Of a stretch of 64,000 bases of DNA, positions 7,602 to 40,258 are shown in pieces; the first letter of the stretch is position 1; each line of letters begins with the position of its first letter. Below the pieces are notes generated by a model, which did not search any database, was not told the DNA's origin, and was given only the letters and a program-made list of their open reading frames with translations. The DNA lies in IMG/VR virus record IMGVR_UViG_3300021364_000001, positions 96,001 through 160,000 of that record. One strand, written 5' to 3'. The position numbers were made by a program, and so were the translations under genes. The stretch comes from a virus.

Positions 7602-7926
7602 TTTTCGCAGTAAGTTCTTGGTACTTGGACACTACATTCTCCAAAGGAGTGTAGATAAATGACACTGAGGGCAGCGGCACATAGATGTAAGGAGAAGCAG
7701 AGAATGGCACGAATGCTTGGAACTCTACGTCAACGTTATCGAGAGTAGTAGGTTCTTCATCGTAACTAGGTTCTTCAAATAGGTTCTGTGCAGGTGCCTG
7801 AATCACCATGGTGTAAGGCATCTCCAACTTATATGCGAGAGGTGGTTGATCTTCACCTTGACGCATCTCGAATACATTAGCGATTACGTCCTCGCCGTTT
7901 TGCATTCTTACGATTCTTACGGTCAT
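7510..7926 (-). CDS. Hypothetical protein (Sm-like T4-type small protein)
   Basis: N-terminal VRIVRMQNGEDVIA pattern; acidic tail overlaps the next gene. Confidence 0.7.
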   Translation of the reverse strand: MTVRIVRMQNGEDVIANVFEMRQGEDQPPLAYKLEMPYTMVIQAPAQNLFEEPSYDEEPTTLDNVDVEFQAFVPFSASPYIYVPLPSVSFIYTPLENVVSKYQELTAKNAEIDVVEERSESVPAGDDDGTGRGTVDSD

Positions 7927-8119
7927 AGTCTTTTTGCATCAGGTTTTCATAAGTGTACTTTACCATGTCGGTGAAAGCACGTCGAGCAGAAACATTCTTT
8001 TCTTCTGCCAGGATGTGAACATACTGCATAAACATATCCATCTCCTCAGGTGGAATGTCTAGGGTCAGTGTTTCACTCTTTTCTGTGTACGCAGGACACA
8101 GATTAACATACATGTTCAT
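7877..8119 (-). CDS. Hypothetical protein
   Basis: GGAGG Shine-Dalgarno 5 nt before the ATG at 8119 (MNMYVNLCP). Confidence 0.75.
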   Translation of the reverse strand: MNMYVNLCPAYTEKSETLTLDIPPEEMDMFMQYVHILAEEKNVSARRAFTDMVKYTYENLMQKDYDRKNRKNAKRRGRNR

Positions 8120-8132
8120 GGATACCTCCAAA

Positions 8133-34998: not shown

Positions 34999-36609
34999 TT
35001 AGATGTTTCCTTTTTCAAAGTCTTTGGGATCAATACCTTGTTCCTCTTCTTGCGGAGGTTCGGGTGGCATCAGAGACAATTCCATCTGTGCTTTCTCCAT
35101 TTGCTGCATCTCAGCAGGAGAGACAACCAGACCTGCTTCAATCTCTGCTTCCATCTGCTTATCAATCTCGTTGAACTCCGCATCAGACTGACGCAGAATG
35201 TTACGACGAAGATATTCCAGAGAGAAATACTTACCAGCGTAAGGATCCATCTGTTGCAAGAGAGCGAGTCTCTCGTTCATGACTTCCTTCTCCTTCATTT
35301 CGGAGAAGTAGTTGTCAGCAATGAAGGAATACTGAATGTGCTCCTTCATTTCGTCCCACTCATCAAGAGTGATGACGCCTTTGAGAACCAGTTGAGTTCT
35401 CAGAAGATCGTTAAAGAGATCACTGAACTTCTTACGAAGTCTGGTGACGAACTTCTGGAACTTAACTTCGTCTCTGGTGATTTCGGCACTACGACCGACG
35501 TTGAAACTGCTTTCAGATTCCAATCTAGACTCTGGGACATTCAGAGATCTATACAGTTTCTTCTGGAAATACTTAACGTCTTCCAGTTCTCCAAGGTTTT
35601 GCCCGCCAGGAAGGGTAGAAATTTCTGTACCGCGCCCGCCCTCGCGTCTCGGAAGCCAGAAGTCTTCCAACATAGACATAAATTTCTTATCGTCTCTGAT
35701 CTCGCCAGTGTCAGCATTGTATACTAACTTATTACGATAGCGAGACATCACTTCACGCAGGTATTGTTCTGCCTTCTGCTTAGGCAGGTTACCCACATCA
35801 ATGTAGAAGATGCGACGTTCAGGTGCTCTGCTCAGACGATAAATGACCAGAGAGTCCTCAATCATGCGAAGTTGATTGAGTGCCTTAATTGCCTTGTGAA
35901 GGTGTGACAACACATAATTGCGTTGCATATCCAACTGACCAGAGTGGCAGTATGTGATAGCATCTGGCGCAATTTTGATGCCATTGTTCTCGTAACCTTT
36001 CAGACCCTTGGGTGAGTAGATGTAATACTCCACAGACTTAGGCACGATAGATGCTGTCTGAGGATCGATAGGTTGGAGACGATCTTTGGGTTTGTCGAAT
36101 TCGACAACCTTCTTGATCTTACGAGGATCGATATATCTAAGTTCCGTAATACCAGCAGCGGGATTCTTAGTGTCGATCATCTTATGATAGAACAGGCGTC
36201 CATCGATATACCAGCGACGGAAGATATCGTATGCCTTTCTATCAAAGTCTAGAAGAACCAGAACGTTCTCAAACTCTTCGCGGATTCTATTGCGAAGTGT
36301 CTGGGACACTTTCAGGTGTTGAAGGTCAATGTCAACGGGGTGATCATTCAGATCCCCAGCGATCGCTTCATTGACAACATCATTAATTGCAGCATCACAC
36401 TCAGGGTGGAGAGACATCTCACGATATCTACCGATCAGGTCTGCTTCCGATGCCTTGTTAGCGGCATCACCCATCTCAACATACTGTCCAAAATATCCAC
36501 CAGCAACGATGGGTTGGGCAGCGTCATCCGACTCTTTACGAACAAAAGAAGGACCAGTTCCCTGATCCTTCTTTCTCTCTAACGAATAACCAAATAGTTG
36601 AGACATCAA
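34999..36609 (-). CDS. gp20: Portal protein, gp20
   Basis: WYIDGR, YRLSRAPERRIFYIDVGNLPK, EDFWLPRREGGRGTEI. Confidence 0.98.
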   Translation of the reverse strand: MMSQLFGYSLERKKDQGTGPSFVRKESDDAAQPIVAGGYFGQYVEMGDAANKASEADLIGRYREMSLHPECDAAINDVVNEAIAGDLNDHPVDIDLQHLKVSQTLRNRIREEFENVLVLLDFDRKAYDIFRRWYIDGRLFYHKMIDTKNPAAGITELRYIDPRKIKKVVEFDKPKDRLQPIDPQTASIVPKSVEYYIYSPKGLKGYENNGIKIAPDAITYCHSGQLDMQRNYVLSHLHKAIKALNQLRMIEDSLVIYRLSRAPERRIFYIDVGNLPKQKAEQYLREVMSRYRNKLVYNADTGEIRDDKKFMSMLEDFWLPRREGGRGTEISTLPGGQNLGELEDVKYFQKKLYRSLNVPESRLESESSFNVGRSAEITRDEVKFQKFVTRLRKKFSDLFNDLLRTQLVLKGVITLDEWDEMKEHIQYSFIADNYFSEMKEKEVMNERLALLQQMDPYAGKYFSLEYLRRNILRQSDAEFNEIDKQMEAEIEAGLVVSPAEMQQMEKAQMELSLMPPEPPQEEEQGIDPKDFEKGNI

Positions 36610-36651: not shown

Positions 36652-37386
36652 TCAACCCCCTCTTTGACCTCTACCGCGACGGTTGCGGTTGCGACGATTA
36701 CGCTCACGACCGTGAGGTTGGTTGTTATCCGTGGTGGGCTCCCAGTATTGTACTTGGAACTCAACGGTGTACTCTTCTGCGGTGTCGTTGCTATCCCATG
36801 CCAGGTCGATGGCAGAGATGTTAGAAGGCCAGATACCTTCAAACTGGTAGGCACCATTAGCACCGTTCTGTCTGTCGTAGTGGAACACACGAGCAGTTGC
36901 CTGGTAGTCAGCAATCGTATCAGCACGCTGATAGTTCATGCTCAGTTCCTGAATGGCACGAGCCCATGCTTCAAACTTAGTACGAAGTTGCATTGCTTCG
37001 TCGTTCATCACAGTAACAGTCCACGGTTCAAACGTTCTGTCACCAGCGATTTTCAACTGACGACCACGGAACGGAACTTCGATCACACCGATAGTAGAAG
37101 CGGGCAGGTTTGCTGCTTTAACCAGGAAGGTGGACAGGTTGGTCTCTTGGTTACGGTTTCTGCCGCGACGACCACGACGACCTCTACCGCGATCTCTACC
37201 GCCATCGGGACGACCAGAGTCGCCATCATCGATGTCGGGGAACTCGATAGCAACTTGGAACAGATTAGGTCTTGCCAGATCCTGAATCTGATTCCTAAAA
37301 TTCATGATTGACAGTGAGGTTTCAGTTCCCTCCTGCCTTGCTTGGTTGCGGCGGCGGTTGCCACCTCTTCTCATTGGGGATGACAT
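36652..37386 (-). CDS. gp19: Tail tube protein gp19 with three Arg/Gly/Asn-rich insertions
   Basis: LARPNLF, AANLPAS, VPFRGR, AGDRTFEPWTVT, WPSNIS, EEYTVEFQVQYW. Confidence 0.95.
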   Translation of the reverse strand: MSSPMRRGGNRRRNQARQEGTETSLSIMNFRNQIQDLARPNLFQVAIEFPDIDDGDSGRPDGGRDRGRGRRGRRGRNRNQETNLSTFLVKAANLPASTIGVIEVPFRGRQLKIAGDRTFEPWTVTVMNDEAMQLRTKFEAWARAIQELSMNYQRADTIADYQATARVFHYDRQNGANGAYQFEGIWPSNISAIDLAWDSNDTAEEYTVEFQVQYWEPTTDNNQPHGRERNRRNRNRRGRGQRGG

Positions 37387-37432: not shown

Positions 37433-37450
37433 GGGGTCCCGAAGGACCCC
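37433..37450 (-). terminator. C(UUCG)G hairpin between gp18 and gp19, without a clean U-tract
   Basis: GGGGTCC-TTCG-GGACCCC followed by CTTCTCCCC. Confidence 0.55.
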
Positions 37451-37456
37451 GATAAA

Positions 37457-40258
37457 TCAACCGACGATCTCAGCGAACGAAGCGCCAGTACGGGTTGCAG
37501 TGAAGCGCAGTGTGATGAAGTTGATGGAGCGGGTGGGCTTCACGAAGATCTCCGCGAAGAACTCACCACGATCAACGGCATCATCAGGGTTGTTGCTGCT
37601 ATCACAAACCACCAGATAATCTTCAATACCACGACGAGACTGAACGCCTCTCAGGTATGGGTCAACGATGTCCTTGAAGGACTGACGAGTAAACTCATCG
37701 TTGATTTCAAACAACATGCTCTTGGCAGCATCACTGATTGCTCTCTCGATAACCAGGAACAGACGACGGACGTTGATTCTGTCGAATGCGCTAGGTTGAG
37801 CAAGACCAGTCTTGTCACCGAAGAGTACAATGCCTTCGCCAGGGAATGCGACGATAGGATTGACGCGAGAGGTGTAGAGACGATCTCTCTCTTCTTTCAG
37901 AGGAGAGTATGCCAGTTTCACAGCGTTACGGATCTGACCTCTGCTGAAACCAGCAGGGGAGAACCAGGGTTCTGCTTCGATTGCGGTATCAAGAATGAGA
38001 CCAGCAACGTCAGGGTTCATAGGCAGATAACGATACTTGTCGTTATACTTGTCATAGATGTACTTGTAGTTGTTATCGAAGACAACGTACGAAGAACTAG
38101 ACAGTTTGTCGAAGTATTCGACAGTCTTGTTGACGATCTCGCCGCTGCTAGGAACACCAATGATGGCGTCGCGAGGAGCAGAAACGAATGCCATGCAGTC
38201 CTGACGGGTTTCGGCAAGGTCGATCATCTTCTGTGCCTTGGCGACAGAATCATCATCGTTGCTCATGGCAGGACCCATGATCACATAATCGATTTCCTCA
38301 GTCTCGGGATCAGAGAACAGATCGTAGGAATCGAACAGTTTGTCACGCTCAGCAGAGTAACCGTCAACACCACCGCGAAGTTCATACTTCAAGGTAGCGG
38401 TGCCCTTGGTGTTAACCAGAGCAATAGACAGGAGGTTGCTGCCAGTGGGATCGTCGATAGACTTGATCGCTTCGGTGTTCTTGAACAGGTCAAACTTACG
38501 GTTCAGAACAGCACCACCAATGTCACCAGTCAGGTTGGCGTCAACATCAAACAGTTTGATGTTCTCGTGAGCACCCCAGAACAGGAAAGCGGAGTTTGCC
38601 TTGATGACATCCTTGTAGTACAGGTTGGAACCCTGAGGAGTCTTGGCGTCGCGTGCCTTGGATACGTTCAGGAACTTTTCAAGAACAGCACCAGGTGTGC
38701 CAGTGATACCACCGTCGCCATCAAGGACGAGGATGTGCATCAGGTCGCGGAAACCACCACGCTCAGAAGCGTAAACGGAAGTACCAGGACGCTCACCGAT
38801 GGCAGACCACTTCTGGTTAGGACCATACAGTCTGCTGATGTACTCGTTCTCAACAGCAGTGATAACCACGTTATCACCTTCGTTGATACCAGAATTAACA
38901 GTCGAGGAATCCTTGATGGTCAGGTTAGCAGCGAACTGCTTAGAACCTTCGTTCAGGACAACGGCGAGACGACGTTGTACGGCAGAAACCACGGCGCTAT
39001 CACCAGTAGCAGCACCAGCAACCCCACCATTGTTACCCAGTTCGGTGATGGTGTTACCAACAGACAGGTGATCGGAAGAGGTTGAGTCAACAGTCAGTTC
39101 AACTTGTCTCTTAGCAGCGTCGTATGCAACAACGCGACCAGTTACGTTACCGCTGTTAGCAGTAAAGAAGTTGTCAGCGTTGAACTCACCAACCAGAGTA
39201 GAACCAGCAGCGAGGGTTACGATCAAGGAGTAAGAATACACCTTGGAGTAGATGTTACCATTAGAGAAGTTAACAGCAGCACCAGTGGTCATCTGCCACT
39301 CAGCGGCACCGTCAGCAGGCTCAGCGAGGGAGAGGATCTGGTCAGGACCAGCGTCAGTCATCACCACGCGGATGCTGTTGCCATAAGTACCAGGAGTACG
39401 GGCAGCCCACTTCCAGTTGTTAGAAGCATCTTCTACGTTTGCTTCATACTCATCAACGTTCTTGATCTTAGGAGGAGTAACACCAGTGCTGGTTTCCTCA
39501 TCGATGGCGGTCTTGGCAGTAGTAACAGTTCTCAGGTCAACGGCAACACCGTCAGTGTGAGAAGCAGCAGCAGTACCAAGTTGAGCACGAGTAACAGTCA
39601 GGTCATTGCCATTAACAGCAGTAACCTGCAAGATCTCGTCGTCGATCTCGATGTAAGAGTTGGTGGTAGCACCCAGAGTAGGAACCGAGGTAACCGTGAT
39701 GGTGGTATCGGTATCGTTCAGAGTGGCACCTTGGTTCAAGGTGGTAGCAGAACCAGCAGGTTCAATCAGAGTGATGTTAGCACCAGCAGCGTGAGAAGCA
39801 GCAGATGTGCTGTACTGACCGCGAGTAACTGAAATGTCCTTACCAGAAATTGCAGTGATAACCAGGATTTCAGCATCAATCAGGAGGAGGTCACCAACAT
39901 CAAATCCAGTAGCATCGGCAACGGTCAGGGTCGTGTCGATAGCGGTAAAGTTTGTTTGGGTGAAGGTCGCAGTGTCGATTGCGTTCTTCAAAGAGGAGTT
40001 GTCAGCACGGACAACTTTAACGGTTCCGCCGTACAGCATAAACTGTGCGACAGAGAACCAGTATTCGTAGTTCTGGTCATTGGGCTCACCGAAGATCTCG
40101 ATGAGTTGGCGTTCGGAAGAGATGTCTACGATCTCTTCAACAGGTCCTTGGGCGAAAGTTCCAACAAAAGCACCGACGTTATCAATCGTCGCGTTAATAG
40201 TGTTGGTAAGATCTCTCTCCTGGACCAATACACCTGGTGATACTTGTGTGTTGGCCAT
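37457..40258 (-). CDS. gp18: Tail sheath protein gp18 (enlarged, 933 aa)
   Basis: SPGVLVQERD, WFSPAGFSRG, RVNPIV, FDRINVRRLF, IKPTRSINF-like C-terminus; TAAATA at 40299-40304. Confidence 0.97.
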   Translation of the reverse strand: MANTQVSPGVLVQERDLTNTINATIDNVGAFVGTFAQGPVEEIVDISSERQLIEIFGEPNDQNYEYWFSVAQFMLYGGTVKVVRADNSSLKNAIDTATFTQTNFTAIDTTLTVADATGFDVGDLLLIDAEILVITAISGKDISVTRGQYSTSAASHAAGANITLIEPAGSATTLNQGATLNDTDTTITVTSVPTLGATTNSYIEIDDEILQVTAVNGNDLTVTRAQLGTAAASHTDGVAVDLRTVTTAKTAIDEETSTGVTPPKIKNVDEYEANVEDASNNWKWAARTPGTYGNSIRVVMTDAGPDQILSLAEPADGAAEWQMTTGAAVNFSNGNIYSKVYSYSLIVTLAAGSTLVGEFNADNFFTANSGNVTGRVVAYDAAKRQVELTVDSTSSDHLSVGNTITELGNNGGVAGAATGDSAVVSAVQRRLAVVLNEGSKQFAANLTIKDSSTVNSGINEGDNVVITAVENEYISRLYGPNQKWSAIGERPGTSVYASERGGFRDLMHILVLDGDGGITGTPGAVLEKFLNVSKARDAKTPQGSNLYYKDVIKANSAFLFWGAHENIKLFDVDANLTGDIGGAVLNRKFDLFKNTEAIKSIDDPTGSNLLSIALVNTKGTATLKYELRGGVDGYSAERDKLFDSYDLFSDPETEEIDYVIMGPAMSNDDDSVAKAQKMIDLAETRQDCMAFVSAPRDAIIGVPSSGEIVNKTVEYFDKLSSSSYVVFDNNYKYIYDKYNDKYRYLPMNPDVAGLILDTAIEAEPWFSPAGFSRGQIRNAVKLAYSPLKEERDRLYTSRVNPIVAFPGEGIVLFGDKTGLAQPSAFDRINVRRLFLVIERAISDAAKSMLFEINDEFTRQSFKDIVDPYLRGVQSRRGIEDYLVVCDSSNNPDDAVDRGEFFAEIFVKPTRSINFITLRFTATRTGASFAEIVG

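What the first reader, a model, noticed from the sequence alone, without database searches (positions are those of the whole stretch)
36652..37386. Tail tube protein with three Arg/Gly/Asn-rich low-complexity arms
Seen: a normal gp19 core interrupted at the N-terminus (MRRGGNRRRNQAR), in an internal loop (DDGDSGRPDGGRDRGRGRRGRRGRNRN, about 37144-37233) and at the C-terminus (GRERNRRNRNRRGRGQRGG, about 36655-36729), about 25 Arg in total, built from CGT/CGC/AAC-type codon runs. Knowledge: T4 gp19 is a compact acidic tube subunit; RG/RGG tracts bind nucleic acids, resemble cell-penetrating peptides and drive condensation. Inference: a polycationic coating on the tube, repeated in every ring, could mediate sheath contact, binding to anionic LPS/membrane, penetration of the thick cyanobacterial envelope, or DNA handling during ejection.
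Basis: partly seen in the sequence, partly recalled or inferred. Interest (0 to 1): 0.72.

Follow-up and report, generated by a model that had tools for sequence, protein, structure and literature searches.

The report
Tail tube with cationic disordered arms
One lineage of marine T4-like cyanophages has made three floppy outer segments of its tail-tube protein strongly positive and the tube-facing layer of its sheath more negative, which points to a rewired electrostatic tube-sheath interface, not an artefact or a DNA-binding device.

Summary
Window 36652-37386 (-) encodes a 244-aa T4 gp19-type tail tube protein between sheath (gp18) and portal (gp20). Its N-terminus (residues 1-26), beta1-beta2 loop insert (51-83) and C-terminal tail (216-244) hold 25 Arg in 88 residues.

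It is not an assembly artefact. 24 IMG/VR contigs and 11 protein clusters at 62-99% identity show the same three basic arms. These form one monophyletic clade whose sister is S-WAM1.

The arm sequence turns over, but charge stays at about +13 and dN/dS is 0.16-0.35. Every other cyanophage gp19 examined is acidic, with arms near -10.

On the same stem branch:
- the inner-layer domains of the sheath became about 14 charges more negative, while its outer domains went the other way;
- the gp19 core lost basic and gained acidic residues only in outer-surface elements;
- portal, neck, capsid, gp3 and gp15 did not shift.

Best reading (0.55): the arms are a disordered polycationic layer on the outside of the tube, sandwiched between an acidified tube surface and an acidified sheath lining. 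A lumen or DNA-handling role is disfavoured. A role at the host envelope after contraction is untested.

This is a new variant of a known kind. The co-variation rests on a single evolutionary event.

The parts
36652..37386 (-). gp19 tail tube protein CDS (244 aa, P0001), net charge +7
   Evidence: top fold match is the T4 tail tube 5w5f
37309..37386 (-). N-terminal arm, residues 1-26 (6 Arg, net +4), upstream of the N-loop helix 27-38
   Evidence: pLDDT below 50 for residues 1-23
37138..37236 (-). beta1-beta2 loop insert, residues 51-83 (T4 has 4 residues here). The acidic half is D51-D65 and the basic half R64-N79; 10 Arg, net +3
   Evidence: pLDDT below 50 for residues 54-82
36655..36741 (-). 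C-terminal arm, residues 216-244, lying beyond the last residue of T4 gp19 (9 Arg, net +6). Semi-conserved motif [HN]-G-[RK]...R-N-R-N-[KR]-x-G-R-G
37457..40258 (-). gp18 tail sheath CDS (933 aa, net -46)
37460..38368 (-). Sheath residues 631-933 (T4 gp18 domains III-C and IV, the inner layer). They carry the clade-fixed acidic changes E683, Q686, D697, D757, E761, E790, E808, D863, E879, D892
39989..40198 (-). Sheath residues 21-90 (T4 domain III-N, inner layer) with the clade-fixed K/R-to-E change at residue 58
34999..36609 (-). gp20 portal, downstream neighbour, used as a no-shift control

Best explanation
The three Arg/Gly/Asn-rich segments are intrinsically disordered, polycationic arms (about +13 per subunit) that leave the gp19 fold at its outer face. 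[quoted passage not shown] In this clade the usual contact, a folded positive patch on the tube meeting a negative sheath helix, appears to have been replaced. [quoted passage not shown] Shown: the arms exist, their charge is conserved and under purifying selection, and tube outer-surface elements and sheath inner domains changed charge together on one branch. Inferred: the exterior location (from fold topology), physical contact with the sheath, and any effect on assembly, on stability of the extended state or on contraction.
For: (1) The clade is conserved. 24 IMG/VR loci and P0002-P0011 and P0015 at 62-99% identity keep N-arm +3 to +5, loop +2 to +5 and C-arm +6 to +9 despite R/K exchange and indels. 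All other cyanophage gp19 have total net -3 to -13. None of the intact proteins among 149 family representatives carries RG-rich arms; almost all are net negative or neutral, and two (P0174, +7; P0127, +3) are net positive without such arms. (2) Arm dN/dS is 0.16-0.35. (3) Topology. AF2 places the arms before the N-loop helix, between beta1 and beta2, and after beta6. The review PMC8718954 places beta1 and beta6.2 in the outer sheet, says the N-loop contacts the sheath in myophage-type systems, says the beta1-beta2 loop contacts the sheath in the T6SS, and says C-terminal add-on domains project to the exterior. In phage P1 the N-terminal helices form the outer rim of the ring. (4) Sheath. Inner-layer parts (residues 21-90, 631-786, 787-933) have net -6.3, -11.4 and -3.2 in the clade against -3.7, -4.2 and +1.0 in 30 other sheaths. 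The outer domains shift the opposite way, -19 against -27. Fixed charge changes are 13 negative to 4 positive in the inner part and 6 to 13 in the outer part, Fisher P 0.0096. (5) The gp19 core shift of -4.2 falls only in alpha1, the alpha-loop, beta4, the beta4-beta5 loop, beta5.1 and beta1, which are outer elements. No lumen-lining strand changed. (6) Controls. The portal shows no shift. Against S-WAM1, gp13, gp14, gp15, gp3, gp20, gp23, terminase and scaffold are within +/-3, while tube is +17 and sheath -20. (7) Electrostatic tube-sheath contact through a helix of the sheath C-terminal domain is established in phiKp24, P1 and T4.
Against: The co-variation is one evolutionary event: the clade is monophyletic with SH-aLRT support 100, so it has no statistical replication. 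There is no structure of any long-loop cyanophage tube, and arm positions are inferred from topology, not seen. I could not show that the new acidic sheath residues face the tube. The AF2 model of the sheath fragment was poor (pLDDT 46.5) and no coordinates were available. Some other proteins also shifted negative against S-WAM1: gp5 by -13 and two large basic hub-region proteins by -27 and -15. It is unclear whether 88 disordered residues per subunit fit between tube and sheath, although sister clades already carry about 65.
Confidence: 0.55

Rival explanations
1. The main job of the arms comes after contraction. Once the tube protrudes from the sheath, the exposed polycationic brush binds anionic LPS, peptidoglycan-associated polymers or anionic thylakoid-type lipids and helps the tube cross the cyanobacterial envelope. 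The acidic sheath lining only neutralises and hides the arms until firing.
For: The exterior location is inferred. Composition is like Arg-rich cell-penetrating or antimicrobial peptides, from sequence. Sheath acidification fits a neutralising scabbard. gp5, the spike at the tube tip, also shifted by -13.
Against: No data here bear on the host envelope. Hosts of the clade are unknown. Sister phages infect the same kind of host with acidic arms. This reading does not exclude the best explanation.
Confidence: 0.15
2. The arms are intra-tube staples. Like the C-arm of SPP1 gp17.1 and 80alpha gp53, they lie on the now acidic outer surface of neighbouring gp19 subunits or rings and strengthen the tube itself, with the sheath change secondary.
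For: The gp19 outer core became more acidic in the same clade. C-arms that fold onto the outer sheet of the neighbouring ring are known. The C-arm has a semi-conserved motif.
Against: This does not explain why 13 of 17 fixed charge changes in the sheath inner layer are acidic. Known C-arms use hydrophobic anchoring, are ordered, and occur in sheathless tails. AF2 gives no ordered conformation.
Confidence: 0.12
3. The composition is neutral drift. The arms are tolerated low-complexity spacers whose make-up drifted through slippage or GC-rich codon runs, and the sheath changes are coincidental hitch-hikers on a long stem branch.
For: The arms are 59% GC against 49% for the core and contain a short tandem repeat. 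There is one origin only. The loops are hypervariable across the family.
Against: Three separate segments shifted in the same direction. Charge is held within narrow limits across two deep subclades while sequence turns over. dN/dS is well below 1. Charge changes in the partner are directional and domain-specific.
Confidence: 0.08
4. The arms face the lumen and bind DNA or the tape-measure protein during assembly or ejection.
For: RG-rich tracts bind nucleic acids (general knowledge). Two large basic hub-region proteins carrying VanY and Amidase_2 domains, possible lumen cargo, are less basic here than in S-WAM1: +38 against +65 and +17 against +32.
Against: The anchor points are outer-face elements. 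No lumen-lining strand changed charge. Tube lumens are negative so that DNA does not stick, and T4 DNA shows no contact with the tube. The charge of the VanY protein ranges continuously from +24 to +58 among homologues, and distant ones are also about +35 to +39, so that shift is not tied to the arms.
Confidence: 0.05

Closest known systems
T4 gp19 tail tube protein (Pfam PF06841; PDB 5W5F, 5IV5)
   Same: Same family and fold. T4 residues 13-27 and 32-163 align to residues 35-49 and 84-215 here. It is the top Foldseek match. The gene order gp18-gp19-gp20 is the same.
   Different: T4 has 12 residues before the conserved N-loop, 4 residues in the beta1-beta2 turn and no C-terminal tail. Here these are 34, about 34 and 29 residues, Arg-rich, and the protein is net positive.
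gp19 of Synechococcus phages S-WAM1 and S-SZBM1 and cyanophages P-TIM40 and P-RSM6 (Kyanoviridae)
   Same: These are the nearest isolates (47-60% identity). They have the same N-extension and a 30-42 residue insert at the same beta1-beta2 position, and the same roughly 930-aa sheath.
   Different: Their arms are acidic or neutral (net -5 to -9 together), total protein charge is -6 to -12, the C-tail is 12-14 residues, and the last 303 sheath residues have net -2 to -5 against about -15 here.
Electrostatic tube-sheath contact in phiKp24, P1 and T4 (PMC9700779, PMC10304247, PMC12929629)
   Same: [quoted passage not shown]
   Different: In those systems a folded positive patch on the tube meets a negative helix. 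Here the folded outer tube surface has turned acidic and the positive charge sits on disordered arms.
C-arm of siphophage tube proteins SPP1 gp17.1 and 80alpha gp53 (PMC8718954)
   Same: A C-terminal extension leaves the outer sheet and lies on the tube exterior.
   Different: Those arms are ordered, anchored hydrophobically on the next ring, and belong to tails without a sheath. They are not polycationic.
Arg-rich disordered arms of virus capsid proteins and RG/RGG motifs
   Same: The composition is similar: Arg/Gly-rich and disordered.
   Different: Those arms face packaged nucleic acid. Here topology places the arms away from the DNA channel. The similarity is one of composition only and was not tested.

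Membership tests
T4 gp19-type tail tube protein (PF06841 / PHROG 45) | Profile match above the curated threshold | tested here: met
   PF06841 31.7 bits against a cut-off of 28.2; phrog_45 E 2.7e-64. A family profile hits T4 gp19 chains at E 3e-35.
T4 gp19-type tail tube protein (PF06841 / PHROG 45) | Tube fold: beta-sandwich flanked by a helix, with a long beta2-beta3 hairpin | tested here: met
   The AF2 secondary-structure order matches. Foldseek's top hits are 5w5f_A, 9ev2 and 5iv5, probability 1.00. Model confidence is only moderate (core pLDDT 70-83).
T4 gp19-type tail tube protein (PF06841 / PHROG 45) | Gene lies between sheath gp18 and portal gp20 in a T4-like late module | tested here: met
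T4 gp19-type tail tube protein (PF06841 / PHROG 45) | Acidic subunit with a negative lumen | tested here: inconclusive
   The whole protein is net +7, unlike nearly all intact representatives, which are net negative or neutral (two reach +3 and +7). The core is still acidic (-6) and the lumen strands are unchanged. Lumen potential was not computed.
RG/RGG nucleic-acid-binding disordered region | Clustered RGG/RG repeats in a disordered segment | tested here: met
   R-G and R-G-G units occur in all three arms, with pLDDT below 50.
RG/RGG nucleic-acid-binding disordered region | Access to nucleic acid and binding to it | not testable with these tools
   Topology argues that the arms are outside the DNA channel.
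Siphophage C-arm (SPP1 gp17.1 / 80alpha gp53) | Ordered C-terminal extension with a hydrophobic anchor on the next ring, in a tail without a sheath | tested here: not met
   The C-arm is polar and polycationic, predicted disordered, and belongs to a sheathed tail.

The most novel reading that the evidence does not exclude
The acidic sheath lining is a neutralising scabbard for a polycationic brush on the tube. On contraction the brush is unsheathed and works as a built-in array of cell-penetrating or LPS-binding peptides (about 140 subunits if the tube is T4-like, 25 arm Arg each). This array helps the tube cross the cyanobacterial outer membrane and anionic lipid layers. That would be a new mode of envelope penetration by a contractile tail.
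Probability: 0.15. Interest if true: 0.8.

Novelty: new variant of a known kind. Interest (0 to 1): 0.55.

Why it matters
Tail tube proteins are almost uniformly acidic, and their contact with the sheath is thought to be weak, folded and conserved. This clade offers a natural experiment: the polarity of that interface seems to have been inverted and moved onto disordered arms, with matching changes in both partners. If confirmed, three things follow. The tube-sheath coupling of contractile injection machines would be evolutionarily tunable through polyelectrolyte-like segments. There would be a handle for studying how that coupling sets tail stability and firing. Designers of engineered tailocins or PVC-type systems would have a possible way to adjust it. 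The case also shows disordered-region charge co-evolving with a folded partner surface.

Tried and rejected
- Assembly artefact or frameshift: rejected, because the same gene occurs on 24 contigs from 23 samples. Three database proteins (P0012-P0014) are chimeric or frameshifted and were left out.
- Genome-wide Arg-rich bias: rejected. gp19 has the most Arg-rich 15-residue window of all ORFs, and most other hits are off-frame ORFs.
- Phage tRNAs as an adaptation to the arms: rejected. Arg-TCT and Asn-GTT tRNAs are present but S-WAM1 has the same set.
- Independent origins of basic arms elsewhere in the family, which would replicate the co-variation: none found among 149 representatives.
- Lumen-cargo compensation through the large basic VanY-domain protein: inconclusive, because its charge varies continuously among lineages.
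- Mapping the acidic sheath residues on a model: the AF2 model of the fragment was too poor (pLDDT 46.5) and gave only secondary structure.
- The T4 tube paper by Zheng et al. 2017 (PMC5587399) is not held.
- Literature search for Arg-rich tail tube proteins found nothing relevant.

Full report
**What is there.** The window belongs to a 187,193-bp single-contig genome of a T4-like cyanophage. The nearest isolates are Synechococcus phages S-WAM1 (85% nucleotide identity over gp18-gp20) and S-SZBM1, both Kyanoviridae. The ORF at 36652-37386 (-) encodes 244 aa (P0001). It matches Pfam PF06841 above the gathering score and PHROG 45 'tail tube' at E 2.7e-64. It sits between a 933-aa sheath (37457-40258) and a T4-type portal (34999-36609). 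A family profile aligns T4 gp19 residues 13-27 to residues 35-49 here, and 32-163 to 84-215. Relative to T4 the protein therefore has about 22 extra N-terminal residues, about 34 residues where T4 has a 4-residue beta1-beta2 turn, and 29 residues beyond T4's C-terminus. An AlphaFold2 model built on 118 homologues gives the expected order of tube-fold elements. Its top Foldseek hit is the T4 tube 5W5F. pLDDT is below 50 for residues 1-23, 54-82 and 232-244, so the arms are predicted to be disordered.

**Check of the observation.** The three segments hold 25 Arg, 16 Gly and 10 Asn in 88 residues. Arg is 5.0% of residues in the long ORFs of the genome, giving a binomial P of 7e-13. Arm Arg codons are CGT 9, CGC 8, AGA 7 and AGG 1. 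The protein has the most Arg-rich 15-residue window of all ORFs in the genome. Net charges are N-arm +4, loop +3 (an acidic half followed by R64-N79) and C-arm +6. The core is -6 and the whole protein +7.

**Not an artefact, and not private to this genome.**
- The protein database holds clusters at 62-99% identity (P0002-P0011, P0015) with the same three basic arms.
- IMG/VR holds 24 loci (L008-L031) from 23 samples.
- Within this set the arms change in sequence (R/K exchange, indels) but stay within N +3 to +5, loop +2 to +5 and C +6 to +9.
- All 40 other non-redundant cyanophage gp19 examined have total net -3 to -13 and arms summing to about -10.
- The sister lineages (S-WAM1, S-SZBM1, P-TIM40, P-RSM6) already have the N-extension and a 30-42 residue loop insert, but these are acidic or neutral. 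Their C-tails are only 12-14 residues.
- So the novelty is a charge inversion plus a longer C-tail, not the insertions themselves.
- None of the intact proteins among 149 representatives of the wider family has such arms. Almost all are net negative or neutral, and the few net-positive intact ones lack RG-rich arms.
- Nei-Gojobori dN/dS in the arms is 0.16-0.35, against 0.04-0.19 in the core. This is relaxed selection but clearly purifying.

**Where the arms sit.**
- The arms attach before the N-loop helix (27-38), between beta1 (42-48) and beta2 (84-91), and after beta6 (206-218).
- The review of major tail proteins (PMC8718954) makes four relevant points. The outer sheet is beta6.2, beta5.1, beta4 and beta1, and the inner, lumen-lining sheet is beta2, beta3, beta6.1 and beta5.2. 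The N-loop contacts the sheath in myophage-type systems. The beta1-beta2 loop contacts the sheath in the Vibrio T6SS and the exterior Ig domain in lambda. C-terminal add-on domains project outwards.
- In phage P1 the N-terminal helices form the outer rim of each ring.
- All three arms therefore most likely emerge on the outside of the tube. This is inference from topology; no coordinates were available to me.

**Co-variation with the partner surfaces.**
- I extracted complete sheaths from 54 loci, 42 of them non-redundant. The last 280 residues have net -8 to -11 in the basic-arm clade against -3 to +3 in all others. The middle of the protein shows no such shift.
- Using T4 domain limits from the alignment, the inner-layer parts (residues 21-90, 631-786, 787-933) are -6.3, -11.4 and -3.2 in the clade against -3.7, -4.2 and +1.0 in the others. 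The outer domains (91-630) go the opposite way, -19 against -27.
- Isolates outside the clade give -2 to -5 for the last 303 residues, against about -15 here.
- The clade-fixed changes are K/R58E, E683, K686Q, D697, D757, E761, E790, E808, D863, E879 and D892.
- D863, E879 and D892 fall in the equivalent of the T4 gp18 C-terminal domain (T4 548-631). One helix of that domain lies against the outer sheet of the tube-like gp3 ring.
- Fixed charge changes are 13 negative to 4 positive in the inner part and 6 to 13 in the outer part, Fisher P 0.0096.
- Within gp19 itself the core shifted by -4.2. Every contributing column lies in alpha1, the alpha-loop, beta4, the beta4-beta5 loop, beta5.1 or beta1, all outer-surface elements. 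The changes include loss of R168, R/K178, K156 and K144 and gain of E130, E136, D/E156, D168, D171 and E183. No lumen strand changed.

**Controls.**
- Portal charge is the same in both groups.
- In a genome-wide reciprocal-best-hit comparison with S-WAM1, gp13, gp14, gp15, gp3, gp20, gp23, large terminase and scaffold differ by at most 3 charges. The tube differs by +17 and the sheath by -20.

**Interpretation.** Known contractile tails hold the sheath on the tube by weak, largely electrostatic contacts, between a positive patch on the tube exterior and a negative helix of the sheath C-terminal domain (phiKp24, P1). In this clade the folded outer tube surface has lost that positive character, the sheath lining is more acidic, and about +13 charges per subunit sit on disordered arms. 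The simplest model is a flexible polycationic layer that bridges two acidic surfaces. What this does to sheath polymerisation, to the stability of the extended state or to sliding during contraction cannot be told from sequence.

**Caveats.**
- The sheath tree shows the clade as one side of a branch with support 100 and S-WAM1-like phages as sister. The tube and sheath changes therefore share a single origin and the association has no independent replicate.
- I could not verify that the acidic sheath residues face the tube. The AF2 model of the fragment had pLDDT 46.5 and gave only secondary structure.
- gp5 (-13) and two large basic hub-region proteins with VanY and Amidase_2 domains (-27 and -15) also differ from S-WAM1.
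- The VanY protein's charge varies continuously from +24 to +58 among homologues, so that shift cannot be tied to the arms.

**Rivals.**
- A post-contraction role at the host envelope fits an exterior location and a 'scabbard' reading of the sheath change, but it is untested.
- An intra-tube staple like the siphophage C-arm explains the acidified tube surface but not the sheath changes.
- Neutral drift is contradicted by charge conservation, by dN/dS and by the directional changes in the partner.
- A lumen or DNA role is contradicted by topology and by the unchanged lumen strands.

**Limits of tools.** The T4 tube paper PMC5587399 is not held.

**Verdict.** This is a new variant of a known kind: a gp19 tail tube protein with charge-inverted disordered arms and a co-changed sheath. 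Interest 0.55.

Noticed in passing
window 37433-37450 (- strand): A perfect 7-bp GC-rich hairpin with a UUCG loop (GGGGTCC-TTCG-GGACCCC) begins 7 nt after the gp18 stop and about 45 nt before the gp19 start. No T-run follows it, so the terminator scan did not call it. It may be an RNA stability or processing element, or a partial terminator that sets the sheath-to-tube expression ratio.
   Followed up: no
window 7877-8131 (- strand): An 84-aa ORF ends in a basic Arg/Lys/Asn-rich tail (DRKNRKNAKRRGRNR) whose composition resembles the gp19 arms. Whether it is a real gene was not checked.
   Followed up: no
G000:C1:48875-55314 (outside the window; L092:5879-12315): Two adjacent proteins of about 1,050-1,090 aa are strongly basic (+38 and +17 here, +65 and +32 in S-WAM1). 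They carry VanY and Amidase_2 peptidoglycan-hydrolase domains and lie next to the baseplate hub and gp5 genes. They are candidates for tape-measure or ejected lytic proteins.
   Followed up: partly
window 36664-37311 (+ strand): A 215-aa antisense ORF spans almost all of gp19. It reads as Thr/Ala/Val/Ser-rich because it mirrors the Arg/Gly/Asn codons. There is no evidence that it is a gene.
   Followed up: no
L037, L044, L052, L061 (IMG/VR loci): A separate cyanophage lineage has a basic N-arm only (+5 to +6, of the type MASPRKTGRTPRENKRQRPG), with an acidic loop and C-tail and no sheath shift. N-terminal basicity can therefore arise on its own.
   Followed up: partly
G000:C1:42419-42570 and 80833-80984: The phage encodes tRNA-Asn(GTT), tRNA-Thr(TGT), tRNA-Val(TAC) and tRNA-Arg(TCT). 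S-WAM1 has the same set, so it is not specific to the Arg/Asn-rich arms.
   Followed up: yes
P0012, P0013, P0014 (database proteins): These metagenome-derived gp19 entries look chimeric or frameshifted, joining parts of the basic-arm type to unrelated or out-of-frame stretches. They were left out of all analyses.
   Followed up: no
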